Below, piece by piece: positions 1 through 28,797 of a DNA stretch of 64,000 nt. The DNA is taken from the NCBI GenBank assembly GCA_038727135.1, contig JAVYWL010000004.1:1-64000 (forward strand), written 5' to 3'. The notes under the pieces were generated by a model. That model had not been told where the DNA came from, made no database searches, and saw nothing but the letters and a program-made list of their open reading frames with translations. Position 1 is the first letter of the stretch, and every line of letters starts with the position of its first letter. A program made the translations under genes and the position numbers. Source of the stretch: Candidatus Bathyarchaeia archaeon. Its GTDB lineage: Archaea > Thermoproteota > Bathyarchaeia > Bathyarchaeales > Bathycorpusculaceae.

Positions 1-229
1 GCAGCGTCTAGAAGCATGGTCTAGACGCCCTTTCGGCGAGGACCCATTCCAGGAGTCCTCACCTATCGGGGATTAGCCCCAGTTTCCCGGGGTTGTCCCC
101 GTCCCAAGGGTAGGTTAGCCACGTGTTACTGAGCTGTGCGCCGCGCCTCCACCGTGGCTTGGAGGCGCACGACTAGCATGTCTTAGTCCCACCCCGATAG
201 CAGTGGGGTCCGGCAGGATCAACCGGAGT
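1..229 (-). rRNA. rrs: 16S rRNA gene, 5' end (partial, continues beyond window start)
   Basis: Reverse complement begins ACTCCGGTTGATCCTGCCGGA and contains GCTCAGTAACACGTGGCTAACCTACCC and GGGAAACTGGGGCTAATCCCC, canonical archaeal 16S 5' motifs. Confidence 0.98.
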
Positions 230-470
230 TAACGAACTCCTGGCCGTCTGCCGGAGACGCTTATTGGCATACGGCCGCAAAGCCGACTGGATTTGGAGGG
301 GGATCCACATGTCAAAGCCCATTTCAGACCTAACACGTTAGCGTCAGGTCCACATTTTTGTGCCCGCAAGTGGAGGCCAACCCTTTTCATCCCTTTTTAG
401 GCGCATAAGCGCCTTTACGGTCTAGGTTGGGCCGCCGCCGGATAAATGCGGGCAGCTCAACTTCACCAAG
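230..470 (-). other. Pre-rRNA 5' leader (external transcribed spacer)
   Basis: Non-coding GC-rich region with short hairpins between the putative TATA box and the mature 16S 5' end; boundaries approximate. Confidence 0.7.
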
Positions 471-494
471 ATAGATGTGAAGATGGCTCAGCGG

Positions 495-510
495 ATATAA
501 ATGTTTCTAC
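495..510 (-). promoter_or_regulatory. Putative rRNA operon promoter (BRE + TATA)
   Basis: Minus strand reads GTAGAAACATTTATAT: purine-rich BRE-like AGAAA followed by TTTATAT, about 270 nt upstream of 16S. Confidence 0.7.
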
Positions 511-532
511 TCGCCTTAGTTTTTATTATTTT
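500..532 (+). repeat. Putative left att site (core AATGTTTCT 500-508)
   Basis: 9-bp exact and 24/33 ungapped match to 11153-11185; lies just beyond the integrase stop codon. Confidence 0.6.
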
Positions 533-536
533 CATC

Positions 537-1712
537 CTATTTTCTTTTTCGGTATATGTGGATTCCGTTTATTGTGTCGAAGTATTCAAAGCCGGCTTCT
601 GCGAGTTTGCATGCTTCTTCTATGGTTGAAGCGGTTTTAACGTGGTATTCGTCGCTTTGTTTTTGGAATATTGCCTGTTCAATTGCAACGTATCTAAGCG
701 TGTTTTGGATGTTAACGTGGCCTATTTCTCTTTGTACGTATAAGATGTCTCTTGTTTTGTGGTAGAGCATTGTTGCCCGCCAATGTCTGAAAGTGTGGAA
801 GCTTATCTGTAAAAGTCTCGGGTTGTTTAGTTTGTAGGCAAGCCTTTTTCTTTGTTTGTAGAAGGCTGTTGCCATGTTTTTTCGGCTGCCAAAAATTCTG
901 CCGTCAGGCCTGGGCTTTAGTCTTTTAAGCATTGAAACGGTTAAATCGTTTAGGGCTAGTATTCTTGGAAGGCTTCCTTTTTCTGGTTTGACGCGGACTG
1001 TTCGCCTTTCAAAGTCTATGTCAGCCCATTTGAGGTTTACGGCTTCGCCGACCCGCATTCCTGTATCCTTTAACAGTTGAAGCAGGGCTGAAACCATTTT
1101 TGAAGTGTGGGCTATAAGCATGTCAAGCTCCTGCTCTGTTGGGATGAAGGGAATTTTCTTTTCCGGTTTGTATTTCGGCATTTCCCATGGAATGTTTAAA
1201 CGTTTATAGAAGCTTTGGAACACGGCAGCGTAGTTAGCCTTTGTTGTTTCGGAAATTTGCATTTTAGCCAAAGCTTCTTTTACAGCTTCTCCGTCTAAAA
1301 CGTCAACGTTTTTTGCAAAGTTTTGAAGCACGCGATTGTAAAACTTTAAGGTTTCTTCACTGCAGCCGTCTTTCTTTAAGGCCCATAGGAAGTTAACGAT
1401 TGCAGTTTTAGCGTCTGTTGTGGCTCCCGCTTCCCGTTTTTCCATTTGCCCTTGGGCTTCCACCAAAAGCTTAGCCGCCTTTTGGTGTGCATCATTTTTC
1501 CTATTTGCCCTCGGCTTATTTTTAAAACCTTCGCTGAACCTTAAACCGCAAACCCTACAAAGCCAACGTTGAACCGGGCTTCCATCGGCCTTGTAGCGGA
1601 ATCCATCTCTATAAAGTTTTTTTGAACCACATTCTGGACAGCAAAGCCCATTTTGGGCTTCAATTTGGAAAACGGGTTTTTCCGTTGGGCTTGCTGCGGG
1701 AGCCTCTTCCAT
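537..1712 (-). CDS. Tyrosine recombinase/integrase with N-terminal Zn ribbon
   Basis: Catalytic motifs TGMRVGE (R), HTFRH (HxxR), IGH, TLRY (Y); N-terminal CPECG...CRVCG. Confidence 0.95.
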   Translation of the reverse strand: MEEAPAASPTEKPVFQIEAQNGLCCPECGSKKLYRDGFRYKADGSPVQRWLCRVCGLRFSEGFKNKPRANRKNDAHQKAAKLLVEAQGQMEKREAGATTDAKTAIVNFLWALKKDGCSEETLKFYNRVLQNFAKNVDVLDGEAVKEALAKMQISETTKANYAAVFQSFYKRLNIPWEMPKYKPEKKIPFIPTEQELDMLIAHTSKMVSALLQLLKDTGMRVGEAVNLKWADIDFERRTVRVKPEKGSLPRILALNDLTVSMLKRLKPRPDGRIFGSRKNMATAFYKQRKRLAYKLNNPRLLQISFHTFRHWRATMLYHKTRDILYVQREIGHVNIQNTLRYVAIEQAIFQKQSDEYHVKTASTIEEACKLAEAGFEYFDTINGIHIYRKRK

Positions 1713-1714
1713 GT

Positions 1715-1960
1715 TTAAACCGCCTTTTTAACGTTTGAAATGAGCTTAGGCGGCCTTCCAGGCGGAAGTTTAGGCTTCTCTCTGGAACGTTTATGGAGCA
1801 GGGGCATGAGGGCTAACAGAAGCTGGATTTCAGTAAGCAGCCGTTGGTTATGCCTAATATAGTGAACGATTTTGTTGACTGTTGGATTCCGTTTTCGAGT
1901 TTTAATGAATTGTTCTAGGGCTTCAAGCTCATGGGGTGTGAAAATGTAGCTACGCATCAC
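1715..1960 (-). CDS. Small basic protein upstream of integrase (possible recombination directionality factor)
   Basis: 81 aa, basic, AT-hook-like PGRPPK, RBS-like GAGGT upstream, ends 2 nt before integrase start; function is inference. Confidence 0.65.
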   Translation of the reverse strand: MMRSYIFTPHELEALEQFIKTRKRNPTVNKIVHYIRHNQRLLTEIQLLLALMPLLHKRSREKPKLPPGRPPKLISNVKKAV

Positions 1961-1982
1961 TTAACCTCTTTAAATTTTTTCG

Positions 1983-2231
1983 CTAAATTCCAACTGTTGG
2001 AATTTCTAGCCCCCTATTTTTCTTCGGCTTTTTAATTGCCAGTGAAAGCTTCCTATGAAGTTTCATTAAGTTTTGGGCGGCTTGCGTTAAAATTATGGAG
2101 TCTTTGACTTTGTCGGCTTCTTGAAGGTTTGCCGCAACTTTGTTAATTTTTCTCAGCGTGTCTTCTATTTGTTTGAGCATTTTCATGATTTCAAGCGGGG
2201 AAAAAGAGGGTTTTTTGTCTTCACATTCCAT
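1983..2231 (-). CDS. Hypothetical helical/coiled-coil protein
   Basis: 82 aa ORF co-oriented with element operon. Confidence 0.6.
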   Translation of the reverse strand: MECEDKKPSFSPLEIMKMLKQIEDTLRKINKVAANLQEADKVKDSIILTQAAQNLMKLHRKLSLAIKKPKKNRGLEIPTVGI

Positions 2232-2294
2232 TTTAACCGCTTTTTATTGCCGTTTTCCTCGTTTCAAACATGAAAGAAAAAGGGGGGTTGACGT

Positions 2295-2969
2295 TCACGC
2301 CAGCAGCATTTGACGTAGCTCAGCAAGTTTCTGCGGATTAAGTAGGATGGACTCCTCTATGGCTGTTTCAAACGCTGCTTCTTTTTTGGCCTGTTCAATA
2401 GCCTGTTGAAGCTGCCAACGCTCATAGTTTGTGGAAATCAGCTCGCTTATCATGTTCAAGGCGTTTAGCGTCTTGTTTGTGACGTTGTCCCATGTGGGCT
2501 GCTTAGGAGGCTCTTTCTGGTTAAGGACGTCCTCAATTTTCTCCAGCTCCTTCTCAATGTCAAGCACAGCCTTGATTTTTTCAACCCGTTTTGAAAGGGT
2601 TATGAGGCGCAGCTCACGTTTGATTTTATTCAACGCGTTCAGCAATGCTTGGCGCTTTTCCTCGGTGTATGGCGAGTTTATTATGAGGCCTTCCCGTGCT
2701 GCAAGCTGGCGGTGCTCTGGGTTGTAGGCATTCAGAATTGTGAAGGCTCTGCCTTCTCCGTCTACAAGCCCGGCTTTGAAAGCTCCAGCCTTCATTTCCA
2801 CCCAAATTGGATGTTCTTTTGGCAAGTCGGCGGCTCTAACCCAGTGTTTTGGACTTGTCTCAATATACAAGTCGAATCCGGTGTATAGAAGGGCGTCTAG
2901 GGGCTTGGCTGAAGCTGAAAGCTGAATTTTGCCAACGTCGCCATACGCTACGTAGCAATACCTTTTCAT
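2295..2969 (-). CDS. Hypothetical protein with coiled-coil C-terminal half
   Basis: 224 aa ORF, GGAGGTGA RBS, ATGA overlap with upstream gene, followed by CCCCCCTTTTTCTTT terminator-like tract. Confidence 0.85.
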   Translation of the reverse strand: MKRYCYVAYGDVGKIQLSASAKPLDALLYTGFDLYIETSPKHWVRAADLPKEHPIWVEMKAGAFKAGLVDGEGRAFTILNAYNPEHRQLAAREGLIINSPYTEEKRQALLNALNKIKRELRLITLSKRVEKIKAVLDIEKELEKIEDVLNQKEPPKQPTWDNVTNKTLNALNMISELISTNYERWQLQQAIEQAKKEAAFETAIEESILLNPQKLAELRQMLLA

Positions 2970-3454
2970 GGCGTTTCACCTCCTGTAACCATTTTAACTA
3001 GGCCTATTACCTTCTCGGGGGTTATTCCATACTCTTGTGGTTTCTCTAAAAGTTGCCATTCAAGTTCAACTCCGCCAACGTAGCCCTGCGGCGTTAACAC
3101 AACTGTCCTGTCGCATCTCCAGATGGTTAGGTCGTCGCGGATAAGCGTTAGCGCATCGCCGCCTCCACGCTTTAAAGTTCTCTGCAAAACGTAGTAGGCG
3201 TGGGTTTCGTTGTTCTGCCGCATCAAAGCGAAGCCAACAATGCCCGCGGCGGCATTGTCAAAGCATGCTTTCCGCCACTTTTCAATGAGCGGCTTAAGCT
3301 CTTCAAGGGCTTCAGCTTCTGAAGGCGTTGGGCTTGCGGATTGTTGAGCTGGCTGTTCAACCGCTTGGGCAGGCTTAGTTTCAGCTGAAGATTCAGAGGC
3401 TTCAGCTTTTTCCGCCTCGGATTTTTTGAATTTTAAGGTTTTAATCCACGGCAC
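2966..3454 (-). CDS. Hypothetical protein with low-complexity N-terminal linker
   Basis: 162 aa ORF, GTG start preceded by GAGGTGA. Confidence 0.85.
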   Translation of the reverse strand: MPWIKTLKFKKSEAEKAEASESSAETKPAQAVEQPAQQSASPTPSEAEALEELKPLIEKWRKACFDNAAAGIVGFALMRQNNETHAYYVLQRTLKRGGGDALTLIRDDLTIWRCDRTVVLTPQGYVGGVELEWQLLEKPQEYGITPEKVIGLVKMVTGGETP

Positions 3455-3482
3455 GACTTATCACCTCTGTCTTGCTTTTTGG

Positions 3483-3523
3483 TTTGCGGGGCTGAAGGCG
3501 TTGCCTTACAGCCCTTTCGCAAA
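3483..3523. repeat. Bulged stem-loop downstream of replication gene
   Basis: TTTGCG-GGGCTG-AAGGC-gtt-GCCTT-a-CAGCCC-ttt-CGCAAA; 17 paired bases. Confidence 0.7.
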
Positions 3524-3557
3524 TTTAAGCCAATAAAAACGTGAATCACGTAAAATA

Positions 3558-6500
3558 TCATTTTTCCAAGCCTCCAGTTTTGAAGTGGCAAAAACGTTTA
3601 TGGTGGCTTCTGAATGTTTCTACGCATGGAAAAACATGTCCCTTGACCGTTAGCAATTCTAGAATTTGATTAAGAATTGTTTCTAAATCGTTTTTTAAAA
3701 TTGTAAAGCTGGCCCAATCGTCGGCTACTCCAAAGAATTGTTTGTAGATATGTTTGTTTGCCTTATGGCTTAAAATGTAGCTTGTTATGAAGCGCCATAA
3801 AGCCCGCTGTCCTTGGGCTGTAAGGCGGTAGGGCGTCTCACATAAATAGACGTCTATGTCTGCATAACGCAGGCCCCTGCGGATTTTAATTACTTTTTTG
3901 AATTGTTCGGCTAGTTTTGCCTTGAAGTCTGGTAAATCAAAACAACTCAAGTCTCCATAACAGCTTTCACATTCGTTGGGCGGTATGGGCTTACCCGTGC
4001 CTATGCAACCGGGAACGGTGGAATCCCTTGTTAGGCTTGATTCTTTTCGCCACTTTCCAAAGAGTTCAACCGCCTTAACCCTAGCCATGAACCACGTCAA
4101 GGGGCCGCGGACTTTAATTTCGGTTCCGTCTGGAAAAGTCAAGTCCATGGGTAGGTTGCGGTTACACCTTCGAGTAAACTCGGCAGCTTTCCAAGCCCAA
4201 ACATTATCAATTTTAGCGGTTAAGTGGACCCAACGCAGCATTCCAAGGCGTATCCCGGGCTTACGCTCAGCCTTAGCTTCCTCAGAAGGCTCCTCTACAA
4301 TCGCCTCTTCTTCAGTAGGGGCTTCAGCCTTCTCTAAGGGGTGTAAGTCATCAAGCTCGATTATTTTGACGGTTTTGATGCCGATAGGTTTGATAGGTGC
4401 GGAAGGCTTATAGGGGAGCCCCACTTCTATAACGGTGCGCCTTTTACGATCCTTTAAAACCTTAAGCCCAAGGCGGTTCTTCGCAATCCTGGACAATTTT
4501 TGGTTAAGGCCCTTCAACTCATCTGGGTCCGGGTTTGGGTCGTCAAGGATTATTTTTGAAATCTTAACCAGTGGAATCCTCAAAACCATTTTTTGCGGTT
4601 CTGGTTGCAAGTAGGGCTTTAGAGTTTCCTTTTCATCTTCTACCCGGCTCACTAAGAGGCCTTCCGAACCACTCACACCTATCGGCACTTCGCCGCAGAT
4701 CCTAGCTAAGGCATCATTAAACTGCTCTTCAAGCTGCCAATCTGGGTCTGAGGCTTTTATTTGGGCTTCAAGTTCTTGAGCTAGCTCGTTTATCTCTTGT
4801 TTAAACTCTGGGTTCAACAAAAGCAAAGGGGCCAAGACTTCCTTAATACGGCTGCTTGAAACATTAAGCTCAGTTTCGATTTCTGGGGTTTCAAGGGATT
4901 CAACTTTGGTCTTTAACTCTCCATATTTCCTAAACCGCCATAAGATAAGTTTGTTGCGTAAGGCTTGGGCTTCTGCCAAAAACTTCTTGTCCCTATACAG
5001 TGGCATCGGCCGGGTTTTCTCGCGGGCAATAAAAGTTAAACAACGAGACTCAAGGGCCTTATCGCGGAACTCTTCCCTTGTAGCCAAAAGTTTAGGCCCA
5101 TAGACATAATACGAAATGGTTTTCTGGGGATTAACATCGTCAGCCCGCGTGTAATGGCCGAGCCGCCGGTCGTAGCCTATATTCAATATTTTGACGATAA
5201 ACGCGTAGAGACTTGACTTATCAAAGTCAGCCTCATCTATGAGGGCCGTTCCACGCCAAAGATTAATCCGTCTAACTATGGCTTTATCAGTGTCACACCC
5301 CGCTAATATAATGGGCCGGTAGCAAATGGATCCAACAGTATCCAACCATGCTGATTTACCACGTCCATAGGGGCCTAACGCCCGCCTATATGGCAATCTC
5401 GGAAGCAGGTCATAGACGTAACTCAAGAAGACGTAAAAGGCATCTAGTTTACGCTCGAATTCATGGGGGGCTTCGTGCCATTTATTCAAAAAGTCTACGA
5501 CTTCCTGGAATAGTTGCTCTTCAGACCCATATTCATCAGCCTTGCTCGGCAAAAGGGTTAGCCCGCTTTTTACGTCGGGGTTTTTTATGGGTTTGTAAAT
5601 GCAGTCTTCAAGTTCTATTTGCTCCGTTTGCTCTATTTGCCCCGTTTTTGGATCATAGACGAGGAAAAAGACGTTTTGGCCGTCGAATGCCTCTTCAATC
5701 AGCCGGCCGTCTGGAAGCTCTGCGGATGGAGTGCGGATAACCTTGTTTGGCCCCTTCAAAATTAGACAATCCGCCTGATTGCAGTGGGCTTTCAATAACT
5801 CGTCGTCGCAGCCGTAAACATACTTGTGGACTTGAGCGCTTTTCAAAACATTTTCAAGCTCCTTCTCCGGAAGTGGCGGACTGTTCCGTCGGTTCCAAGC
5901 CTTAAGCTTGGCTAAAGCCTTTGACCGGCTAAGCCCTCGGAAATTCAGAAGGTATGAAGCCAAACGGATAGCTGACTCGTTTCTAATGCCTTCTGCAACA
6001 CCTTCAAGCAGGGCTTTAATACAAGGCGGGCTAGGCCCTCTATACAACCCTTTAACAGCCCTGCTTTGGCTAAACCATGTTTCCCGTTTAACTTCAACCC
6101 CGGCCCTCTGAAGGGCCTCATAGAAGACGGCTTCAAGATTTTGGACTACCGTAGGGCTGTTATCGTTCAACCGCCTATAGCCCTCAGAAGGCGCCATAAT
6201 GCATAGTTTACCCTCACCTAAAAGCTCCAAACCGCAAATGTTATGGTAGGCGCTTATGCTCTTTGGCTTGACATGGCTTAGATAAATCCAGTGCTTGCCT
6301 TTACTAGGTGTCTCCTCAATTTGTGTTATGGGCAAATGCTTTAGAGCTTCACGACCCTTTTCAACGGCTTCTGAGCTAACATTTTTAACATCAAAGTCAA
6401 TGGCCCCGAAAAATAGGCCGTTTTTTGCTTTCGAGCCGCAAATTATGGCGAAACCGTCCGCTTGACTCCATGGAAGGCTGCAGAATTCCTCTTCCGTCTG

Positions 6501-6632
6501 AGGCTCCTTTTGCCATTTAGCCCATTCAATGAGCGGTTGCTTGCCTTTAAGCGGAACAACCGACAGCCCTAAGCTCCAATAGTTTCTAGCAGCTTCAACG
6601 ATTTCGCTCATTAAAATCAGTCGCTCCTTCAC
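3558..6632 (-). CDS. Replication protein: bifunctional primase-polymerase + PriCT + P-loop NTPase
   Basis: N-terminal YWSLGLSVVPL..K.P, DFD, TPSKGKH (Prim-Pol); PPCI..L..GVAEGIRN and WN.RNSPPL (PriCT); Walker A GPYGRGKS, Walker B LIDEAD; true start may be ATG 6611. Confidence 0.9.
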   Translation of the reverse strand: MKERLILMSEIVEAARNYWSLGLSVVPLKGKQPLIEWAKWQKEPQTEEEFCSLPWSQADGFAIICGSKAKNGLFFGAIDFDVKNVSSEAVEKGREALKHLPITQIEETPSKGKHWIYLSHVKPKSISAYHNICGLELLGEGKLCIMAPSEGYRRLNDNSPTVVQNLEAVFYEALQRAGVEVKRETWFSQSRAVKGLYRGPSPPCIKALLEGVAEGIRNESAIRLASYLLNFRGLSRSKALAKLKAWNRRNSPPLPEKELENVLKSAQVHKYVYGCDDELLKAHCNQADCLILKGPNKVIRTPSAELPDGRLIEEAFDGQNVFFLVYDPKTGQIEQTEQIELEDCIYKPIKNPDVKSGLTLLPSKADEYGSEEQLFQEVVDFLNKWHEAPHEFERKLDAFYVFLSYVYDLLPRLPYRRALGPYGRGKSAWLDTVGSICYRPIILAGCDTDKAIVRRINLWRGTALIDEADFDKSSLYAFIVKILNIGYDRRLGHYTRADDVNPQKTISYYVYGPKLLATREEFRDKALESRCLTFIAREKTRPMPLYRDKKFLAEAQALRNKLILWRFRKYGELKTKVESLETPEIETELNVSSSRIKEVLAPLLLLNPEFKQEINELAQELEAQIKASDPDWQLEEQFNDALARICGEVPIGVSGSEGLLVSRVEDEKETLKPYLQPEPQKMVLRIPLVKISKIILDDPNPDPDELKGLNQKLSRIAKNRLGLKVLKDRKRRTVIEVGLPYKPSAPIKPIGIKTVKIIELDDLHPLEKAEAPTEEEAIVEEPSEEAKAERKPGIRLGMLRWVHLTAKIDNVWAWKAAEFTRRCNRNLPMDLTFPDGTEIKVRGPLTWFMARVKAVELFGKWRKESSLTRDSTVPGCIGTGKPIPPNECESCYGDLSCFDLPDFKAKLAEQFKKVIKIRRGLRYADIDVYLCETPYRLTAQGQRALWRFITSYILSHKANKHIYKQFFGVADDWASFTILKNDLETILNQILELLTVKGHVFPCVETFRSHHKRFCHFKTGGLEK

Positions 6633-6807
6633 GCTCTTTCGCTATCCAAAGCCTCACCGGGCTTTTGGTTTGAAAACGTAGCTCGCAGCCTTCAGCCTTT
6701 AAAATCGCCTGTTTAATCTTCTCATAAGCCTTCAAAGTCCCCTTGCAGACGAACGCAAACCAGAAAACAGTTTCCTCAGGCTCAACCTTCAACTCTTTCT
6801 CAATCAT
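6595..6807 (-). CDS. Small hypothetical protein leading the replication operon
   Basis: 70 aa, GGTGGTGA RBS, overlaps start of replication gene. Confidence 0.7.
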   Translation of the reverse strand: MIEKELKVEPEETVFWFAFVCKGTLKAYEKIKQAILKAEGCELRFQTKSPVRLWIAKEREGATDFNERNR

Positions 6808-6831
6808 TTCACCACCGACTATGATGGATGC

Positions 6832-6870
6832 GAAACTTATATATAATTAATAATTTGTAACTATTACAGA
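6832..6870. promoter_or_regulatory. Divergent promoter region with palindromic operator candidate
   Basis: Symmetric TTATATATAA TATA box and TGTAA-cta-TTACA inverted repeat between divergent genes. Confidence 0.55.
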
Positions 6871-6890
6871 AAGAAAACTGAGCGATCGAC

Positions 6891-7820
6891 ATGAAGAGAA
6901 GAGAGCTTGACGAAATAGAAGTAGACATTTTAGCCCATCTGCTTGAAAATGGAGAGCAGAGGTTCATAGAAATCGCAGAGGCCCTTTTCCCAAAACATGA
7001 AAAAACCTTCTATCATGATGAAAGACACTTTAAAGTAGTGTTAGTTAGAAAGTTGGAAAAGCTTAAGGAAGAGAAGTATATTGGAAAAAAGATTTACAGT
7101 CATAAAAACGTGTGCTACTTTATTCCAAAGAATAAAAAAGAACATGTTGCAAAAATGGTTAAGGATTATCGAAACTCTGAGTATTTTAATAAGTTATCAC
7201 AAGAAGAAAAGGAAAGACTCATTAAGTATCATCAGTTGCGAAGCAGACTATTAGAAATATTAAATGAACCGCTTCCAGGAATGATTATAGAACAGAAACT
7301 TCAACAGTTAGGTTATAAGCCTTCCGATTACAAACTCCGCAATGTTGTTTACGGTGAAATTTATGACTTATACACTCCAGAAGATATAATATTTGAAATT
7401 GTCCCCTGCAGCGAAAAAGACTTCCAAAATCTTAGAGCAGAGATTTTTCACGGTCACTATTATAAACCAGTAGCCTACATTAAATCAGAGAAAAAAGTAG
7501 TGCTCGCTGGTTACAAGGCAATAGATGAACTTGCCGAGCAAATAGATGAAATAGAAGTAGAGCTTGTTAAAATAGAATTCGATTTAACAAGTCAGGATGT
7601 CAAAAGATTGGACCAGAAACTTTTAAAGATTTTTCCATTAAAAGGAGCCGAATTTTGGAGATATATTGCAAGTAAAAAGCCAAACGCCCTTCAATTATTC
7701 ATAAATCATTATATTCGATTAGGCTACTCTGAAAGGTTCGCGGAAACTCTAGCGAAAAACGAACTTAGGTTTTATCAAGCTATTGAAAGAGATTTTAAAA
7801 CTTACAAAGGGTTGAATTGA
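6891..7820 (+). CDS. Winged-HTH domain protein (putative element regulator)
   Basis: N-terminal LDEIEVDILAHLLENGEQRFIEIAEAL...LEKLKEEKYI wHTH pattern; divergent from rep operon; visibly more AT-rich than flanks. Confidence 0.75.
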   Translation: MKRRELDEIEVDILAHLLENGEQRFIEIAEALFPKHEKTFYHDERHFKVVLVRKLEKLKEEKYIGKKIYSHKNVCYFIPKNKKEHVAKMVKDYRNSEYFNKLSQEEKERLIKYHQLRSRLLEILNEPLPGMIIEQKLQQLGYKPSDYKLRNVVYGEIYDLYTPEDIIFEIVPCSEKDFQNLRAEIFHGHYYKPVAYIKSEKKVVLAGYKAIDELAEQIDEIEVELVKIEFDLTSQDVKRLDQKLLKIFPLKGAEFWRYIASKKPNALQLFINHYIRLGYSERFAETLAKNELRFYQAIERDFKTYKGLN

Positions 7821-7824
7821 TGCT

Positions 7825-8241
7825 TCATTTTTCATACCACGCGTCTATTTGGGTTATGGGGCTGCTATGGTTTAATGTCACTAGGTAGCCGCGTTTTCCA
7901 AAACGTGAAACCAAAACTATTCCGGCAACTTGAAGCCTTCCGACAATCTGCCTAACCCTATGGTAGTCGTTGACGCCTATGGCCCGTGCAATTTGGCCCA
8001 ATGATGAGCCGCCGCCAAGGCTTAAAAACCGTATAACCTTCACCATCTTCGAGTTTTGCAGATAATAGCTTAAATCATATTTTGCGATTTCGTAAAAGCT
8101 TTGATGTTCAAGAAACTTTTTTAGGGCGTAACGTGCAGCCTCTTCAACGCTTAAACGTTTAAACCTTGCAAAACGCTCCAGACACGCATATAATTCTGGC
8201 GGCAGCTTGATAATGTAAACGCCCTCAGCCCTATTCAGCAA
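7825..8241 (-). CDS. RHH + winged-HTH DNA-binding protein
   Basis: IIKLPPELYACLERFA...SVEEAARYAL (RHH-like), then SLGQIARAIG...LQVAGIV (wHTH). Confidence 0.7.
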   Translation of the reverse strand: MLNRAEGVYIIKLPPELYACLERFARFKRLSVEEAARYALKKFLEHQSFYEIAKYDLSYYLQNSKMVKVIRFLSLGGGSSLGQIARAIGVNDYHRVRQIVGRLQVAGIVLVSRFGKRGYLVTLNHSSPITQIDAWYEK

Positions 8242-8426
8242 ACCTTTCGGCCCTCATATTCCGCAAGAAACTCTTCCAGATATCTGGCCAAAAACAAGCA
8301 GTTTTCCGCCCTTGTTAAATCGCCCTGGGCCTTAAACTCTTCAGCCTTTCTGCGTAAAGCCTTGATTTTCCGCTCAAAATCCTTTTTTAACCGTTTTTCA
8401 AGCTTTACCTCACTCATGGCGGACAC
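8235..8426 (-). CDS. Small helical hypothetical protein
   Basis: 63 aa ORF coupled to neighbours. Confidence 0.65.
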   Translation of the reverse strand: MSAMSEVKLEKRLKKDFERKIKALRRKAEEFKAQGDLTRAENCLFLARYLEEFLAEYEGRKVC

Positions 8427-8431
8427 CTATC

Positions 8432-8851
8432 TTAAACGTATCCGCGTTTTCTAAGCCACTCAATATATTGGCAAAGCTTTTCCGAGGGCGGATATATTCC
8501 GCTCCAGTTTATTGCTCCACCGGCCCGTTCAACGCTTTCTACGGCTAACCGTTCAAGCTTGTCCGCTTGCCTTTTAGGCAGCTTGTCATAATCAATCGGC
8601 TGCTTGTCCAGGAGAACCGTTGCCCGGCAGTTCCAAACGCTTACCTCAACCTCTGAGTCAAAGGGTATAGGCGGGCTTGTAGTGCAAGGCCATTCTGTCC
8701 GTGTAACCGGAAAGCCTTTCTCGTCGACTGGAAGCTCTTTTCCACAGTAGGGACATATCCATTTTCCGTCTAAGTAAGCTGCCGGGTGAATGTAAAATTT
8801 ACGCCCCATAAACTTCACCGCCACAAGGCTAAAGTTTTCGTTATCCTGCAA
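8432..8851 (-). CDS. Hypothetical protein with CPYCG Zn-binding motif
   Basis: 139 aa ORF in operon; start uncertain. Confidence 0.7.
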   Translation of the reverse strand: MQDNENFSLVAVKFMGRKFYIHPAAYLDGKWICPYCGKELPVDEKGFPVTRTEWPCTTSPPIPFDSEVEVSVWNCRATVLLDKQPIDYDKLPKRQADKLERLAVESVERAGGAINWSGIYPPSEKLCQYIEWLRKRGYV

Positions 8852-9036
8852 TAATAGGCTTCAAACTCGGCTTGGCCTATTTGGCCCTGCAAAAGCCGGT
8901 TTATTTTAGCCCTAATCTGCTCTACAAGCCCGCAGAAAACCACATTCGCGTAGTTTATAGGGTAGAATCGCTTGCCCTTTAAAGGCTTCCAGTATAATAG
9001 CCAACGCTGAGGACTGCATTTCAAAACAACCCTCAT
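8815..9036 (-). CDS. Hypothetical protein (73 aa, MRVVLKCSPQ...)
   Basis: ATG at 9036 preceded by GAGGTGA RBS in a repeated junction module. Confidence 0.7.
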   Translation of the reverse strand: MRVVLKCSPQRWLLYWKPLKGKRFYPINYANVVFCGLVEQIRAKINRLLQGQIGQAEFEAYYCRITKTLALWR

Positions 9037-9043
9037 CAACCCG

Positions 9044-9154
9044 TCACCTCTTATACCGTGTGACAAAACGGCAACCGCACTTGTTGCAATACCATACCGT
9101 CACAGACGAGTCAAACTCTCCATCCATTTCAAAACCGCATTCAGGACACTTCAT
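9044..9154 (-). CDS. 36-aa Zn-ribbon microprotein
   Basis: MKCPECGFEMDGEFDSSVTVWYCNKCGCRFVTRYKR; TAATG coupling and GAGGTGA RBS. Confidence 0.75.
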   Translation of the reverse strand: MKCPECGFEMDGEFDSSVTVWYCNKCGCRFVTRYKR

Positions 9155-9306
9155 TAACAAGTCACCTCTAAAGATATGTCGTTTAATGATGGTTCGCCTA
9201 CGCTTAGCCATGTGCACATGCTCTTGTAGGGGCAGCCCCTGCATAGGCCGGGGTATTTCACTATTACCCTGTCACGTTTTCCGAAACACCATTCTCGGTT
9301 AGCCAT
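9154..9306 (-). CDS. 50-aa Cys-rich microprotein (not in ORF track)
   Basis: MANREWCFGKRDRVIVKYPGLCRGCPYKSMCTWLSVGEPSLNDISLEVTC; TGATG coupling upstream, TAATG downstream. Confidence 0.7.
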   Translation of the reverse strand: MANREWCFGKRDRVIVKYPGLCRGCPYKSMCTWLSVGEPSLNDISLEVTC

Positions 9307-9611
9307 CAACCCGTCACCTCGAGAAGGCTTAACTGGACAGTTTGAGGCTCCTCTTCCACACAGCCCTCATAGATTCTCGGCAGCTTGTAGCCCGTCGCGT
9401 TTGGCAAGTCGAAGCGAATCCTAAAGCCCTCATGCGTGACGGTGAATCCCCAACCGTTGTTCAAACAAACTTGGCTATTGTAAGCCCTTTTAACTTTCTC
9501 GACAAAACGCTCATCATCCATTAACCATTCAACTGAAGGCTCAACGGCTGCGAAAGTTGTTCTGTCCAGGCGGATGTATCTTCGGCCCCTAACATTTACC
9601 ACATCATTCAT
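9306..9611 (-). CDS. Hypothetical protein
   Basis: 101 aa, GAGGT RBS, first gene of the leftward small-ORF operon. Confidence 0.75.
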   Translation of the reverse strand: MNDVVNVRGRRYIRLDRTTFAAVEPSVEWLMDDERFVEKVKRAYNSQVCLNNGWGFTVTHEGFRIRFDLPNATGYKLPRIYEGCVEEEPQTVQLSLLEVTG

Positions 9612-9612
9612 T

Positions 9613-9694
9613 TTCTATACCTCGGTTTATACTTATGTCTAAACAAGTATTTAAACCTTTCTATACTTAGGTTTAGAAAAATTTTTATACCACG
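9613..9694. promoter_or_regulatory. Repeated operator-like motifs in divergent promoter
   Basis: TTCTATACCTCGGTTTA (9613-9629) and TTCTATACTTAGGTTTA (9659-9675), 15/17 identical, plus weaker TTATAC-led copies. Confidence 0.55.
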
Positions 9695-9720
9695 GAATTC
9701 ATAGGAGGTATGGTGGTAGC

Positions 9721-9885
9721 ATGGTTAAAGAAGCTGAAACAAAAATTTACAAAACAAACGGCCGTCACTACCTCTATCTGCCAAAAGATTTAATCACAGA
9801 CTCTAATTTTCCGCTTGACATTAAAAAGCCAATAATCATACGCATAGAAGGCCAAAAACTAATCGTTGAAAACAAGAAAGCGTAA
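9721..9885 (+). CDS. AbrB/SpoVT-like swapped-hairpin protein, 54 aa (not in ORF track)
   Basis: MVKEAETKIYKTNGRHYLYLPKDLITDSNFPLDIKKPIIIRIEGQKLIVENKKA; similar to host gene 62514-62717. Confidence 0.8.
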   Translation: MVKEAETKIYKTNGRHYLYLPKDLITDSNFPLDIKKPIIIRIEGQKLIVENKKA

Positions 9886-9914
9886 GCATTTTTTACGCTT
9901 TTAGGCTAGCCTAA
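9877..9914. terminator. Hairpin plus 14-bp palindrome between convergent AbrB-like genes
   Basis: AAAGCGTAA-gcatttt-TTACGCTTT, then TTAGGCTAGCCTAA. Confidence 0.5.
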
Positions 9915-10033
9915 GTTGTGCAGAAATGCTTAGTTGTGTCCATGCTCTTGCTTCAGTTGAGGGTATCTTCCACATTGCCCTTTTTGAAAAGGGCTCAGTT
10001 TTGCAGCCCCTCATCACCGCAACCCCATGTTTC

Positions 10034-10198
10034 TTACGGTGAACTTTCAGCCCGCCTCATGCAGATTTTATCGTTTTCAAGCCAAATCTCCAAAACATCG
10101 CCTTCTTTTAGGCCTAACTGTTCAACAATGGCTTTTGGAATTAAAATTCTAAGGCTGCCGCCTGAACGCACAATTTTATGGCGCAGCTTCAAACTCAT
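10034..10198 (-). CDS. AbrB/MazE/SpoVT family DNA-binding protein, 54 aa (not in ORF track)
   Basis: MSLKLRHKIVRSGGSLRILIPKAIVEQLGLKEGDVLEIWLENDKICMRRAESSP: classic G.SL.I.IPK.I...LGLKEGD motif. Confidence 0.88.
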   Translation of the reverse strand: MSLKLRHKIVRSGGSLRILIPKAIVEQLGLKEGDVLEIWLENDKICMRRAESSP

Positions 10199-10330
10199 AT
10201 CTTGAAAAGTGTAGCCTTCATGTTTTTAATTGTTTCTAAAAAATCATTTTTTATAGATTGCCAAGCAGTTAAAAAATATTTTTTAGAAGATTTTAAATAG
10301 GTTAAGAGTAGAATAAAATGTTCTATTAGA

Positions 10331-10432
10331 GGTGAAGCTGAGGCAAACCGGCCTAGCCTAACCAACGCAAAATTCCCCCTCCGGAAATAAACACGTCATC
10401 TCTCCTTTCTCCCGCTCAGCCTCAGCTTCACC
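10331..10432. repeat. Perfect 14-bp inverted repeat enclosing 74 nt
   Basis: GGTGAAGCTGAGGC (10331-10344) / GCCTCAGCTTCACC (10419-10432). Confidence 0.85.
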
Positions 10433-10443
10433 CCCGGGAAAAC

Positions 10444-10902
10444 ATGGAGGAAGAGGAAATGAAAACGAAAAGTAAAGTTGCTTTGGCGGCGTTGATACTT
10501 GCCAGCATAATCGGCATATCTATGGCGGTTCAATACCTCAACTGGGAAGTTGGCAATCGAGTTGAAGTTATAGGTTATTTAATGGTGAAAGTTTACAAGG
10601 ACGAGGCTTGCACTGAACCGTTAACCTACATTGACTGGGGAACCGCATATCGAGGTGCACAGCTCGAATATTGCGCCTACATTAAAAATGAGGGTGAAAT
10701 ACCGGCCTATGTAACCTGGAGCGTGAGCGGCCTCCCTTCATGCTTGCAGCTTTCAATATATGATTGGTCGCAAAACATGGTAAAATTATTGAATCCAGGA
10801 AATAGACTGATGATTCGATTCATGTTAACGGTTGCTAGCGATGCGCCATACCAGACTTTCACGTTTACCATCACCTTCACAGCGACGGACACGTATCCTT
10901 AA
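10444..10902 (+). CDS. Secreted/anchored beta-rich (Ig-like) protein
   Basis: Basic plus hydrophobic N-terminus, VY.D.ACT.P...IDWG and YIKNEG motifs, alternating beta-strand C-terminus; true start probably MKTK at 10459. Confidence 0.75.
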   Translation: MEEEEMKTKSKVALAALILASIIGISMAVQYLNWEVGNRVEVIGYLMVKVYKDEACTEPLTYIDWGTAYRGAQLEYCAYIKNEGEIPAYVTWSVSGLPSCLQLSIYDWSQNMVKLLNPGNRLMIRFMLTVASDAPYQTFTFTITFTATDTYP

Positions 10903-11078
10903 ACGCACATCCAATCCCCCATTTTTCTGTTTAACACAAGCCCGCATCGGCTGCAGCAAACCTCACCAGTCAAACCGTCGCGGACAGCTTTCCTGGAACC
11001 GCAAAGCGGACAAGGCGTTTTAAGCTCTATTTCCACTCGAACATAATGGCTAACATCTTTATCCGGAGGCACAGTCAT
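10899..11078 (-). CDS. Stand-alone TFIIB/TFB-type zinc-ribbon protein (59 aa)
   Basis: CPLCGSRKAVRDGLTGEVCCSRCGLVLNRKMGD aligns ungapped at 17/33 identity with the Zn ribbon of host TFB (44111-45049); start uncertain. Confidence 0.75.
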   Translation of the reverse strand: MTVPPDKDVSHYVRVEIELKTPCPLCGSRKAVRDGLTGEVCCSRCGLVLNRKMGDWMCV

Positions 11079-11152
11079 TTTAAAGGCCTCATAAACGTTG
11101 CACAATGAGAAAAAATGGGGGTGTGTGGGAGAAGTCACCTCAAAGCTTTTGT

Positions 11153-11185
11153 AATGTTTCTTTCCGTCTTAATATGTATTGTTAT
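11153..11185 (+). repeat. Putative right att site (core AATGTTTCT 11153-11161)
   Basis: Direct repeat of 500-532, just outside the stop of the first host-type gene. Confidence 0.6.
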
Positions 11186-11192
11186 TTCTGAA

Positions 11193-11930
11193 TCAACAAT
11201 CACTAATTATCTTTGGAACCTCTTTTAGACTTTTCACAACAAAGTCCGGCTTAATGTTTGTGCAATCTGGTTTAGACGTGTCTGTCGCGGATGTCTTTCG
11301 AAGGACTAGGATGGCTTTCATCCCAACATTTTTTGCGCCATCAACGTCCATGCTTGGCGTGTCGCCAACAAAAATAGCCTCAAAAGGAGCCACATTTAGG
11401 CTTTCTAGTGCCTTTTGAAAGATTTCAGGGCTTGGCTTGCGCTTGTTAACCTCGGCAGAAATAATAACGACGTCAAAGAACCTTTTCAAGTCATATTTTT
11501 CAAGGAGCGCCCAAACACACTCTGGTATGGCGAAGTTGGAAATCAAGCCAAGCTTATATTTGCCGTAAAGCCGCTGCAGCACATCCATAGCGTCTTTATC
11601 GAGGCTTACATATTTCATGAACTCTTTAGCAAAGCATTCAGTAGTCTCGGCAATGATGGCGTAAGAAAGGTCATAATTGTAGCCCAGCCTTTGGAGGGTT
11701 TTCCAAACGCGAATGTTAAAGTGTGGCTCCTCGAGATTCTTGTTCGCCTCCACGTATATGGCGTCCCTAACCTCAAAATAGACCTTCCTAAATTCTTCAA
11801 AGGAGACATCAACGCCTTTCCCTACCAGAAAATTGTGGAGCTTTTGAAGGCACGGAGTGTAAAAGGCATTGCCGCCTTCAACTAAGAGAAGCGTGTCAAA
11901 TAGGTCGAATAGTACAGCCTTAACCTTCAA
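11193..11930 (-). CDS. HAD-superfamily hydrolase
   Basis: FDLFDTL motif I, ISN, KPSPEIF, VGD...DVDGA. Confidence 0.92.
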   Translation of the reverse strand: MKVKAVLFDLFDTLLLVEGGNAFYTPCLQKLHNFLVGKGVDVSFEEFRKVYFEVRDAIYVEANKNLEEPHFNIRVWKTLQRLGYNYDLSYAIIAETTECFAKEFMKYVSLDKDAMDVLQRLYGKYKLGLISNFAIPECVWALLEKYDLKRFFDVVIISAEVNKRKPSPEIFQKALESLNVAPFEAIFVGDTPSMDVDGAKNVGMKAILVLRKTSATDTSKPDCTNIKPDFVVKSLKEVPKIISDC

Positions 11931-11933
11931 CGC

Positions 11934-28687: not shown

Positions 28688-28797
28688 GCCGGGGTAGCCT
28701 AGCCTGGAATGGGCGCCAGACTCATAATCAAAAGGTCTGAATGGGGCACAGAAGATAGGAAATCTGGAGGTCGCGGGCTCAAATCCCGCCCCCGGCA
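28688..28797 (+). tRNA. tRNA-Met(CAT), elongator, with 35-nt intron at 37/38 (28727-28761)
   Basis: GCCGGGG/CCCCGGC acceptor, CCAGA-CT-CAT-A[intron]A-TCTGG anticodon arm, CTCAAATC T loop. Confidence 0.92.

What the first reader, a model, noticed from the sequence alone, without database searches (positions are those of the whole stretch)
491..11185. Integrative element that appears to target the rRNA operon promoter and rebuild it
Seen: there is no tRNA at either end. The 9-mer AATGTTTCT occurs at 500-508 and 11153-11161, and the match continues ungapped to 24/33 nt. The left copy abuts the TTTATAT box and covers the BRE position of the 16S promoter. Removing the element gives minus-strand GACGGAAAGAAACATTTATAT, a normal BRE-TATA; the integrated form reads GGCGAGTAGAAACATTTATAT. 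Known: archaeal tyrosine integrases (SSV-, pNOB8-, SNJ2-type) usually target tRNA genes and restore the target. Inference: this element uses the rRNA promoter as a conserved site and carries a look-alike of the displaced upstream DNA, so rRNA transcription survives or is retuned.
Basis: partly seen in the sequence, partly recalled or inferred. Interest (0 to 1): 0.85.

Follow-up and report, generated by a model that had tools for sequence, protein, structure and literature searches.

The report
Mobile element inserted in 16S promoter
A 10.65-kb integrase-carrying mobile element sits exactly in the core promoter of this archaeon's only 16S rRNA gene, a target not described before as far as I could search, and related genomes show both the empty site and other insertions at the same point.

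Summary

- **The insertion.** Window 509-11161 (10,653 bp) carries an intact tyrosine integrase and a primase-polymerase replication gene. It is flanked by the 9-mer AATGTTTCT at 500-508 and 11153-11161.
- **Empty sites.** Four same-genus genomes join the 16S leader directly to the HAD-hydrolase flank through one copy of the 9-mer. Metagenome contigs of relatives show the same joint.
- **The target.** On the 16S strand the 9-mer is the BRE plus the first two T of the TATA box. The motif is conserved across the family and resembles this genome's tRNA promoters.
- **Recurrent use.** Three more genomes carry related, decayed inserts at the same nucleotide.
- **Look-alike arm.** Beyond the core the element matches the displaced upstream DNA at 15 of 24 positions, on one side only.
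- **Family context.** Integrase paralogues sit beside tRNA genes. The nearest clade crosses over in the first codons of an isochorismatase gene and supplies a new promoter and start. Another homologue abuts the 23S promoter.

Not shown: a circular form, any transcription start, or any effect on rRNA synthesis.

I class it as a new variant of a known kind.

The parts
1..229 (-). 5' end of the 16S rRNA gene, cut by the contig and window start
   Evidence: Rfam RF01959, 153.9 bits, model positions 1-212. The rest of the 16S lies at G000:C2:29-737.
230..494 (-). 16S leader. Conserved across the family up to the promoter.
   Evidence: 60 of 81 family genomes match window 150-508. G003 is 97.8% identical over 1-508.
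495..501 (-). Putative TATA box, TTTATAT on the 16S strand
   Evidence: Read from the sequence. Conserved in the 33 loci. tRNA genes of the same genome have similar GAAACATTTAA-type upstream motifs. No transcription-start data.
502..508 (-). Putative BRE, AGAAACA on the 16S strand. It lies inside the core.
   Evidence: The motif assignment is inferred.
500..508 (.). attL core AATGTTTCT, the left copy of the direct repeat
509..536 (.). Element arm between the core and the integrase stop codon. A partial look-alike of the displaced host upstream DNA.
   Evidence: 15 of 24 identities to 11162-11185. Related arms occur in G011, G017 and G013.
537..1712 (-). Tyrosine integrase, 391 aa, intact, with an N-terminal four-cysteine zinc ribbon. 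It is transcribed towards the 16S promoter.
   Evidence: PF00589 at 2e-23. phrog_1 integrase at 2.5e-36. XerA structures at about 1e-13. R220, K245, R309, H332 and Y341 are conserved in at least 97% of 34 homologues.
1715..3454 (-). Four ORFs of 81, 82, 224 and 162 aa. No family match.
3558..6632 (-). Replication protein, 1024 aa: PrimPol domain, PriCT_1 domain and about 700 aa with no match
   Evidence: PF09250 at 3.2e-11 and PF08708 at 3.6e-9. PHROG primase families. No plasmid hit, weak phage primase hits, no PDB hit.
6891..7820 (+). 309-aa ORF in the lowest-GC stretch (0.32), perhaps a winged-helix protein. Lead only.
   Evidence: Atlas feature scores of 0.88 or less and TM below 0.35.
7825..9611 (-). 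Run of small ORFs. Includes a weak CopG-like match (7825-8241) and a zinc-ribbon ORF (9044-9244).
   Evidence: phrog_7325 at 1.6e-4. PF13453 at 1e-4, 22 bits, equal to its cut-off.
9918..10902 (+). Two plus-strand ORFs of 95 and 152 aa. The 152-aa protein has unnamed look-alikes in Bathyarchaeota and in some viral records.
   Evidence: Atlas score 0.97 to unnamed clusters.
10899..11138 (-). 79-aa ORF at the right end with a sub-threshold TFB/TFIIB-type zinc ribbon. Same direction as HAD and 16S; it begins 14 nt after the attR core.
   Evidence: PF08271 at 2.2e-6, 27.5 bits against a cut-off of 29. NF001658 TFB at 2e-5, far below its cut-off.
11153..11161 (.). attR core AATGTTTCT, the right copy of the direct repeat
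11162..11192 (-). Displaced host DNA that normally lies directly upstream of the 16S BRE. Holds the family-conserved TAATAT box.
   Evidence: Alignment of 31 unoccupied sites.
11193..11930 (-). HAD-family hydrolase, the host gene that normally ends 31 nt upstream of the core
   Evidence: PF13419 at 2.8e-22. Adjacent to the promoter in 19 of 33 loci.

Best explanation
Window 509-11161 is an integrated, plasmid-like 'cryptic' mobile element of a Bathyarchaeia genome. It carries a tyrosine integrase, a PrimPol-type replication protein and small DNA-binding and zinc-ribbon ORFs. No capsid genes were recognised.

Its integrase recombined an attP lying about 28 nt downstream of its own stop codon with an attB that is the core promoter of the genome's single 16S rRNA gene, which is not linked to the 23S gene. 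Strand exchange took place within the 9 bp AATGTTTCT, which on the 16S strand is the BRE plus the first two T of the TATA box.

Because this core is duplicated, an intact BRE-TATA stays attached to the 16S gene. Everything upstream of the BRE, including a family-conserved TAATAT box, now lies 10.65 kb away next to the HAD gene. In its place stand element DNA (a 62% look-alike over the first 24 nt) and the integrase gene, which is transcribed towards the promoter.

**Shown:** the insertion, its exact boundaries, the empty sites, repeated use of the site, the one-sided look-alike, and the family context.

**Inferred:**
- The motif is the working promoter.
- The integrase is the enzyme responsible.
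- The element-supplied arm serves to keep or modify rRNA transcription. I put this at about 40%. The alternative is that the arm is a recombinase-binding or leftover identity segment.

The confidence given is for the element and its site, not for the functional role of the arm.
For: **Boundaries and empty sites**
- Homology of the right flank in relatives starts at window 11153.
- One-copy junctions occur in G003, G001, G005 and G009.
- Contigs in runs X6 and X7 join 499 to 11153 with 9 shared letters.

**Ancestral state**
- HAD ends 33-123 nt from the core in 19 of 33 family loci.
- 31 of 33 loci continue with the attB-type box.
- 23 of 33 loci have the exact 9-mer.

**Recurrent occupancy at the same nucleotide**
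- G011: 4.65-kb insert with an integrase remnant and no second core. The same junction is present in two metagenome contigs.
- G013: attL at a contig end with the integrase 3' end, and attR at another contig's start with a different inner sequence.
- G017, another genus: about 1.1-kb remnant.

**Integrase**
- PF00589 and PHROG integrase matches with conserved catalytic residues.
- The same layout holds across the family: the target lies 27-59 nt after the integrase stop. This was seen for tRNA genes in 11 of 37 loci.

**Promoter reading**
- Conservation stops just upstream of the box.
- tRNA genes of the genome carry similar upstream motifs.
- The genome has a single 16S gene.

**Look-alike arm**
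- 15 of 24 identities on the right, 3 of 24 on the left.

**Analogy**
- The sister-clade element in G009 is 17,352 bp with 13-bp repeats.
- It crosses over in codons 8-12 of an isochorismatase gene and supplies a new promoter, start codon and first seven codons. The empty attB is in G005.
Against: - No circular or attP junction was found: not in the rows shown, and not in pattern scans of metagenome and viral contigs.
- Only the window copy has an intact integrase. The three other inserts are decayed, so activity today is unproven.
- The 9-mer occurs 36 times in the genome, so specificity must lie in flanking DNA that I could not define. I saw no clear inverted core-type binding sites.
- The promoter is assigned by motif and conservation only. 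No RNA run holds the stretch.
- The nearest intact homologues (58-60% identical) sit at other targets.
- The genome is a metagenome assembly, and the contig starts inside the 16S gene. The one near-identical independent contig (X1, 481-986) has only 28 letters left of the junction, below the tool's 31-letter bridging rule.
- All occupied genomes also have HAD next to the site, so HAD-flank targeting cannot be fully separated from promoter targeting in those genomes.
Confidence: 0.84

Rival explanations
1. The element is real, but its target is simply the AT-rich spacer after the HAD gene. This would be ordinary intergenic or 3'-distal integration, as in thaumarchaeal elements. The overlap with the rRNA promoter is then incidental, and the arm similarity is only a recombinase-binding or residual identity segment with no role in transcription.
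For: - All four occupied genomes have HAD beside the site.
- Intergenic and 3'-distal targets with short repeats are common in related archaea. Passages of PMC6563490 read give 15 intergenic and 14 3'-distal targets among 68.
- No expression data exist.
Against: - The core and the conserved box travel with the 16S promoter even where no HAD hit was found downstream: 11 of 33 loci.
- The core is the BRE/TATA motif itself.
- The integrase-proximal junction faces the 16S gene. The nearest clade abuts the 5' ends of genes running in the same direction, and its G009 element demonstrably rebuilds one.
- Another homologue abuts the 23S promoter.
Confidence: 0.12
2. The junction between the 16S leader and the integrase is an assembly or binning chimera created at a repeated rRNA region. 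On this reading the 9-mer match is chance.
For: - The contig starts inside the 16S gene.
- The 9-mer is frequent, and the repeat finder lists many comparable repeats.
Against: - The same junction type appears in independent assemblies: G011 and two ENA contigs, one of them 50 kb; G013; and G017.
- Both flanks of the insert meet exactly in four relatives.
Confidence: 0.02
3. The 10.65 kb is ancestral, and the relatives lost it by deletion between the two 9-mers. There was no integration.
For: A deletion between short direct repeats would give the same empty junction.
Against: - The unoccupied arrangement is found across about 20 genera.
- The region encodes an integrase and a replication module.
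- Different inserts occupy the same nucleotide in G011, G013 and G017.
Confidence: 0.02

Closest known systems
pTN3-like integrases of Thermococcales (described in the review PMC8371274; passages read)
   Same: The element integrates on the 5' side of its target, and the recombinant target is expressed from element-borne upstream DNA. The integrase lies next to the rebuilt end.
   Different: - Their target is the 5' half of a tRNA gene.
- They are 'suicidal': attP lies inside the integrase gene, which is split on integration.
- Here the target is an rRNA promoter, the integrase stays intact, and attP lies 28 nt after its stop codon.
Cryptic integrated elements of Thaumarchaeota (PMC6563490; passages read)
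   Same: Integrase plus a PrimPol-type replication protein, no recognisable capsid genes, short direct repeats, and use of non-tRNA targets.
   Different: - No rRNA-associated target is mentioned: the word 'rRNA' occurs 0 times in the main text. The supplementary Table S2 with all sites could not be seen.
- An S3H helicase domain was not detected here.
Classical tRNA-targeting tyrosine integrases (pNOB8-type and bacterial P4/lambda-like), including this genome's own paralogues
   Same: - Same enzyme family and same layout: attP just after the integrase gene, and a one-sided identity block that replaces the displaced part of the target.
- Paralogues lie 27-59 nt from tRNA-Pro, tRNA-Leu and tRNA-Asn genes.
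   Different: The restored part here is non-transcribed promoter-upstream DNA, at only 62% identity beyond a 9-bp core. In tRNA-targeting elements it is an exact copy of the tRNA 3' part.
Prophage PsiM100 of Methanothermobacter wolfeii (as summarised in PMC8371274)
   Same: An archaeal tyrosine-integrase element with an AT-rich intergenic att site.
   Different: PsiM100 is reported not to affect transcription of adjacent genes and is not at a promoter core. It is a tailed virus.
SpyCI of Streptococcus pyogenes at the 5' end of mutL (PMC3430984; title and abstract start seen in the listing)
   Same: Integration at the 5' end of a housekeeping gene, with an element-encoded promoter that rescues downstream expression.
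   Different: A bacterial, phage-like island in a protein-coding operon, acting as a growth-phase switch. It is not an rRNA promoter.
rDNA-specific eukaryotic elements (R1, R2, Pokey; PMC10946416 seen only in the listing; element names recalled)
   Same: They use the conserved ribosomal RNA locus as a reliable target.
   Different: They are retrotransposons or DNA transposons inserting inside multicopy rRNA genes. The case here is a tyrosine recombinase acting at the promoter of a single-copy gene.

Membership tests
Tyrosine recombinase / phage integrase (PF00589) | Catalytic domain recognised by the family profile | tested here: met
   PF00589 at 83.5 bits against a cut-off of 27.1. phrog_1. 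XerA structures at about 1e-13.
Tyrosine recombinase / phage integrase (PF00589) | Catalytic Arg, Lys, His-x-x-Arg, His and Tyr residues present | tested here: met
   R220, K245, R309 (in HTFRH), H332 and Y341 are conserved in at least 97% of 34 homologues. The assignment of roles to these residues is recalled, not computed.
Site-specific integrative element | Insert flanked by direct repeats, with a precise empty site in relatives | tested here: met
   9-bp repeats. One-copy junction in G001, G003, G005 and G009 and in contigs of runs X6 and X7.
Site-specific integrative element | Excised circular form (attP) observed | tested here: inconclusive
   No backward joint among the rows shown; 27 joints were not shown, and only assembled contigs were available. 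Core-plus-arm pattern scans found only integrated forms.
Site-specific integrative element | Same site used repeatedly by related elements | tested here: met
   G011, G013 and G017 are occupied at the same nucleotide. The pattern scan of 332 family genomes gave 4 hits, of which 3 are occupied sites (G000, G011, G017) and G136 is an attB variant. G013, with another arm, was found by DNA search, not by the pattern.
SSV-type 'suicidal' archaeal integrases | attP inside the integrase ORF; gene split into two parts on integration | tested here: not met
   The integrase is one intact 391-aa ORF. The core lies 28 nt beyond its stop codon.
pTN3-like 5'-targeting integrases | attB is the 5' half of a tRNA gene | tested here: not met
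   There is no tRNA within 1-12,000. The target is the 16S BRE/TATA.
Thaumarchaeal-type cryptic integrated element | Integrase plus PrimPol-S3H replication protein; no virion or conjugation genes | tested here: inconclusive
   PrimPol and PriCT_1 were found, but no helicase domain was detected in the remaining roughly 700 aa. Pfam, PHROGs and NCBIfam gave no capsid, terminase or conjugation match for the ORFs tested.
Provirus | Capsid and packaging genes | tested here: not met
   There were no such matches. The integrase search of viral contigs gave only distant matches. Unrecognised archaeal capsid folds cannot be excluded.
Archaeal BRE-TATA promoter (target site) | TATA box with an upstream purine-rich BRE about 25 nt before a mapped transcription start | not testable with these tools
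   The motif, its conservation and its likeness to tRNA upstream regions support the reading. No RNA holder was listed.

The most novel reading that the evidence does not exclude
One lineage of Bathyarchaeia tyrosine integrases has moved from tRNA genes to the 5' control ends of genes.

- It crosses over in a BRE/TATA or in the first codons of the target.
- It brings its own replacement upstream DNA.

On this reading the host's only 16S rRNA gene comes under element-supplied upstream control. In a close relative the same may hold for the 23S gene.

At attR, the displaced host upstream box plus a copy of the BRE now faces the element's right-end gene, which encodes a small protein with a TFB-like zinc ribbon. 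Integration could therefore wire an element gene to half of the strongest promoter in the cell.
Probability: 0.3. Interest if true: 0.8.

Novelty: new variant of a known kind. Interest (0 to 1): 0.66.

Why it matters
Integrases are thought to choose tRNA genes because these are conserved and can be rebuilt after integration. Here the same enzyme family uses the core promoter of a single-copy rRNA gene, which is the most highly expressed and least dispensable locus of a cell. Its nearest clade rebuilds the promoter and first codons of a protein gene.

If this is confirmed, three things follow:
- The known set of archaeal attachment sites grows.
- It becomes a natural experiment on what an archaeal rRNA promoter needs upstream of the BRE.
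- It offers integrases with a short, well-defined and widely conserved landing site in an uncultivated, abundant archaeal class. The exact 9-mer is present in 23 of 33 family loci.

It also bears on assembly practice. Contigs that break at rRNA genes can hide such insertions.

Tried and rejected
- **Chance repeat:** rejected on the comparative evidence, not on repeat statistics. One search shows many similar repeats.
- **Circular form:**
  - The pattern of core plus left arm found 14 stretches in metagenome contigs. Two are the G011-type integrated junction and 12 are chance. It found one chance stretch in viral contigs.
  - Read laying showed no backward joint in the rows shown.
- **RNA evidence:** no RNA holder was listed, so expression and transcription starts could not be examined.
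- **Depth across the element:** parts without cover are not interpreted.
- **The search for related loci with the single integrase:**
  - In genome contigs it gave 57 loci. Only 2 are Bathyarchaeia, and one of those (68% identical) is cut by its contig end, so its neighbour is unknown.
  - In viral contigs it gave only 8 distant matches.
- **PrimPol protein:** no plasmid hit, four weak phage primase hits and no PDB hit. The element could not be tied to a named plasmid or virus family.
- **Atlas searches of two ORFs:** leads only.
- **G136 pattern hit:** this proved to be a normal attB variant, not an insert.
- **attR of the G149 element at the 23S promoter:** not found on its 23.5-kb contig.
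- **Integrases upstream of the 23S promoter:** none in 27 further family loci.
- **First attempt to find the sister element's attR:** a blastn-short search failed. A closer empty site in G005 later gave the answer.
- **G000 isochorismatase locus:** I first took it for an empty site. It is better read as a scar that keeps the element-type 5' end and a remnant of the integrase's last codons.
- **Literature:** five searches and passages of three papers gave no report of an integrase attB at an rRNA promoter. The library holds only open-access papers and preprints, and supplements were closed.

Full report
**What is in the window**

The window is the first 64 kb of contig C4 of a 1.55-Mb, 7-contig metagenome-assembled genome. 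Record titles of the two closest outside hits name Bathyarchaeia.

- Bases 1-229 are the 5' end of a 16S rRNA gene on the minus strand, cut by the contig start.
- No tRNA lies within 1-12,000.
- From 537 to 11138 lies a block of mostly minus-strand ORFs:
  - a 391-aa tyrosine integrase at 537-1712 (PF00589, 2e-23);
  - a 1024-aa PrimPol plus PriCT_1 protein at 3558-6632;
  - several small ORFs, two of them with sub-threshold TFB/TFIIB-type zinc ribbons;
  - three plus-strand ORFs without family matches.
- From 11193 the host resumes with a HAD-family hydrolase and an HdrA-like protein.

**The observation**

AATGTTTCT occurs at 500-508 and 11153-11161. The ungapped match continues to 31 nt at 74% (D11).

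By itself this means little. One search lists at least 60 direct-repeat families in 14 kb, and the 9-mer occurs 36 times in the genome.

Beyond the core, 15 of 24 bases agree on the side away from the 16S gene. Only 3 of 24 agree on the other side. 52 of 200,000 random genomic 24-mers and 486 of 100,000 shuffles of the arm reach 15.

**Empty sites**

- A search of 41 genomes (G000 and 40 relatives) with window 11139-12600 gave matches in G003, G009, G005 and G013 that all begin at query base 15, which is window 11153.
- In G003, G001, G005 and G009 the 16S leader (92-98% identical to window 1-508) and the HAD flank lie on one contig. They overlap by exactly the 9-mer.
- Contigs of two hot-spring runs join 499 to 11153, skipping 10,653 bases, with 9 letters fitting both sides. 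X7 has one contig at depth 197 with 53 letters on the short side. X6 has one contig with 21 letters. They are about 94% identical to the window, so they come from relatives and not necessarily from the same population.
- Among 33 loci with the promoter region (29 from a family-wide search plus the 4 above):
  - 31 continue beyond the core with a conserved box (consensus TTTnnnCCTAATATAnnTT);
  - 23 have the exact 9-mer;
  - 19 have the HAD gene ending 33-123 nt away.

The unoccupied arrangement is therefore ancestral, and the window carries an insertion.

**The same nucleotide is used again**

- **G011** (same genus) has the window's arm type directly after the core, an integrase remnant (aa 250-353, 54% identical), 4.65 kb of other genes and no second core. 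Two ENA metagenome contigs carry the same junction.
- **G013** (same genus):
  - attL sits at the end of contig C70, with homology to the last roughly 27 codons of the integrase and an arm still closer to attB.
  - attR sits 1,192 nt into contig C63, with a different inner sequence.
- **G017** (another genus) has a roughly 1.1-kb remnant with a related arm.
- A pattern scan of 332 family genomes for the promoter, the core and the first two arm bases found G000, G011, G017 and G136. G136 proved to be an ordinary attB variant.

In all, four genomes are occupied. Only the window copy has an intact integrase.

**What the target is**

On the 16S strand the site reads AGAAACA TTTATAT. The core is the seven-base A-rich element plus the first two T of the TATA-like box.

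I read this as BRE plus TATA for four reasons:
- It lies about 270 nt upstream of the mature 16S 5' end.
- Family-wide conservation of the leader runs up to it and ends about 25 nt beyond it.
- tRNA genes of the same genome carry very similar motifs 30-45 nt upstream, for example GAAACATTTAA-type.
- It is the only such 14-mer in the genome.

No transcription-start data exist.

The 16S gene is single. Its 3' part lies at the start of contig C2, and the 23S gene lies elsewhere at the end of C1, so the two are unlinked.

Both rRNA promoters are preceded, 21-22 nt upstream, by a second TATA-like box that is conserved in the family. Integration separates that box from the 16S gene.

**Family context of the integrase**

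- The genome has at least five other full-length paralogues (40-48% identical) and a broken one.
- In 37 loci examined, 11 integrases have a tRNA gene 27-59 nt beyond their stop codon. Seven are convergent and four run in the same direction.
- One integrase abuts the RNase P RNA gene.
- In a quick maximum-likelihood tree of 36 integrases, the window's enzyme groups (SH-aLRT 93) with six others. L058 was left out because only 123 aa were recovered.
- All six lie just upstream of a gene running in the same direction:
  - four before an isochorismatase-domain gene;
  - one, 26 nt before a LarA-like gene;
  - one, 119 nt before a small gene.
- For the isochorismatase group I could define the event. 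In G009 a 17,352-bp element is flanked by the 13-bp repeat ATAATAATTGACA. G005, which is 97% identical in the flank, has the empty site. The crossover lies in codons 8-12, the original promoter and first codons are left at the far end, and the element supplies a new promoter, start codon and seven codons.

So this clade does carry replacement upstream DNA for its targets.

- Separately, an integrase 50% identical to the window's lies on G149:C17 with its stop codon 45 nt upstream of the 23S TATA-like box.
  - The leader there is 99% identical to G000's, where the site is unoccupied.
  - This integrase falls in another clade, with tRNA-Pro-associated and RNase P-associated enzymes (SH-aLRT 99).
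  - That contig may be mis-binned, and its far end was not found.

**Mechanism**

*Shown:* a 10.65-kb element bounded by 9-bp repeats at the BRE/TATA of the 16S gene.

*Inferred from family knowledge:* the integrase exchanged strands within the 9 bp between an attP just downstream of its gene and this attB.

*Consequences read from the sequence:*
- BRE and TATA remain attached to the 16S gene.
- The DNA upstream of the BRE is now the element arm and the integrase gene. The integrase is transcribed towards the promoter, with no T-run terminator in the 28-nt spacer.
- The host's upstream box plus a second BRE copy now face the element's right-end 79-aa ORF.

Whether the arm keeps, lowers or raises rRNA transcription is untested. 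I put about 40% on a functional role. The main alternative is a recombinase-binding or residual identity segment.

**What kind of element**

No capsid, packaging or conjugation genes were recognised. The PrimPol protein has no relatives in the plasmid collection and only weak phage primase hits.

The best fit is the 'cryptic integrated element' class described for Thaumarchaeota: an integrase, a PrimPol-type replication protein and short repeats (passages of PMC6563490).

It is not SSV-type, because the integrase is intact and the att site lies outside it. It is also not a member of the pTN3-like group, although it works in a similar way by targeting the 5' side.

**Novelty**

The review of archaeal tyrosine recombinases and the thaumarchaeal survey do not contain the word 'rRNA' in their main texts. 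Five full-text searches gave no report of an integrase attB at an rRNA promoter. Supplements and subscription journals were out of reach.

I rate it a new variant of a known kind: a classical integrase system with a new class of target and a 5'-end-rebuilding habit in its clade.

**Limits**

- The genome is a metagenome assembly.
- The contig starts inside the 16S gene.
- No circular form was seen.
- No RNA data were available.
- There is only one intact copy.
- Specificity determinants are unknown.

Noticed in passing
L165 (G009:C5:48500-68000), repeats at L165 1210-1222 and 18562-18574; empty site in L215 (G005) at 1504: A 17,352-bp element with an integrase 59-60% identical to the window's is flanked by the 13-bp repeat ATAATAATTGACA, inside the first codons of an isochorismatase-domain gene. 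The element supplies a new promoter, start codon and seven codons. The original 5' end is left at the far end of the element.
   Followed up: yes
G000:C2 about 266397-266451, outside the window: Upstream of the same isochorismatase gene, the window's own genome keeps the element-type 5' end and a sequence resembling the last codons of that integrase clade, but no element. It looks like a scar of a lost insert.
   Followed up: partly
L127 / L178 (G149:C17:1-1790): An integrase 50% identical to the window's ends 45 nt upstream of the TATA-like box of the 23S rRNA gene and runs in the same direction. The leader is 99% identical to G000:C1:818101-818633, where the site is unoccupied. The far end was not found on the 23.5-kb contig, and the contig may be mis-binned.
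   Followed up: partly
L133 (G133:C65), RNase P RNA at 1298-1603: A homologous integrase ends 21 nt from the 3' end of the RNase P RNA gene. L130 has a similar flank. This is another non-tRNA RNA-gene target in the family.
   Followed up: no
window 11162-11185 and the family loci: Both the 16S and the 23S promoters of this family are preceded, 21-22 nt upstream, by a second conserved TATA-like box. These are TATATTA-type for 16S and CTTATTA-type for 23S.
   Followed up: partly
window 9034-9050, 9152-9168, 9304-9320: A 17-nt sequence occurs three times (two copies identical) at the junctions of small minus-strand ORFs. On that strand it reads as a Shine-Dalgarno-like GAGGTGA followed by TTGATG. 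One X7 contig lacks the 270 nt between two of the copies.
   Followed up: no
window 9044-9244 and 10899-11138: Two small ORFs of the element have weak TFB/TFIIB-type zinc-ribbon similarity; one scores exactly at its Pfam cut-off and the other below it. This is curious in an element that sits in a BRE/TATA.
   Followed up: partly
window 28688-28797 (+): Rfam finds a 110-nt tRNA match that ARAGORN does not report. It is probably an intron-containing tRNA.
   Followed up: no
L054 (G011:C4) about 1230-1992: The HAD gene next to the decayed insert in G011 shows no open frame of 60 aa or more. Its tblastx pieces fall in different frames, so it may be a pseudogene or may contain assembly errors.
   Followed up: no
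G000:C2:8404-10414, outside the window: A broken integrase (one TAG, 60-62% identical to the window's) lies 26 nt upstream of a LarA-like gene. The same arrangement, with an intact integrase, is found in G004.
   Followed up: partly
G000:C4:1-229, C2:29-737 and C1:818329-820020: The 16S gene is split over two contig ends, with its middle part unassembled. The 23S gene lies on a third contig end with its own promoter, so the rRNA genes are unlinked.
   Followed up: partly
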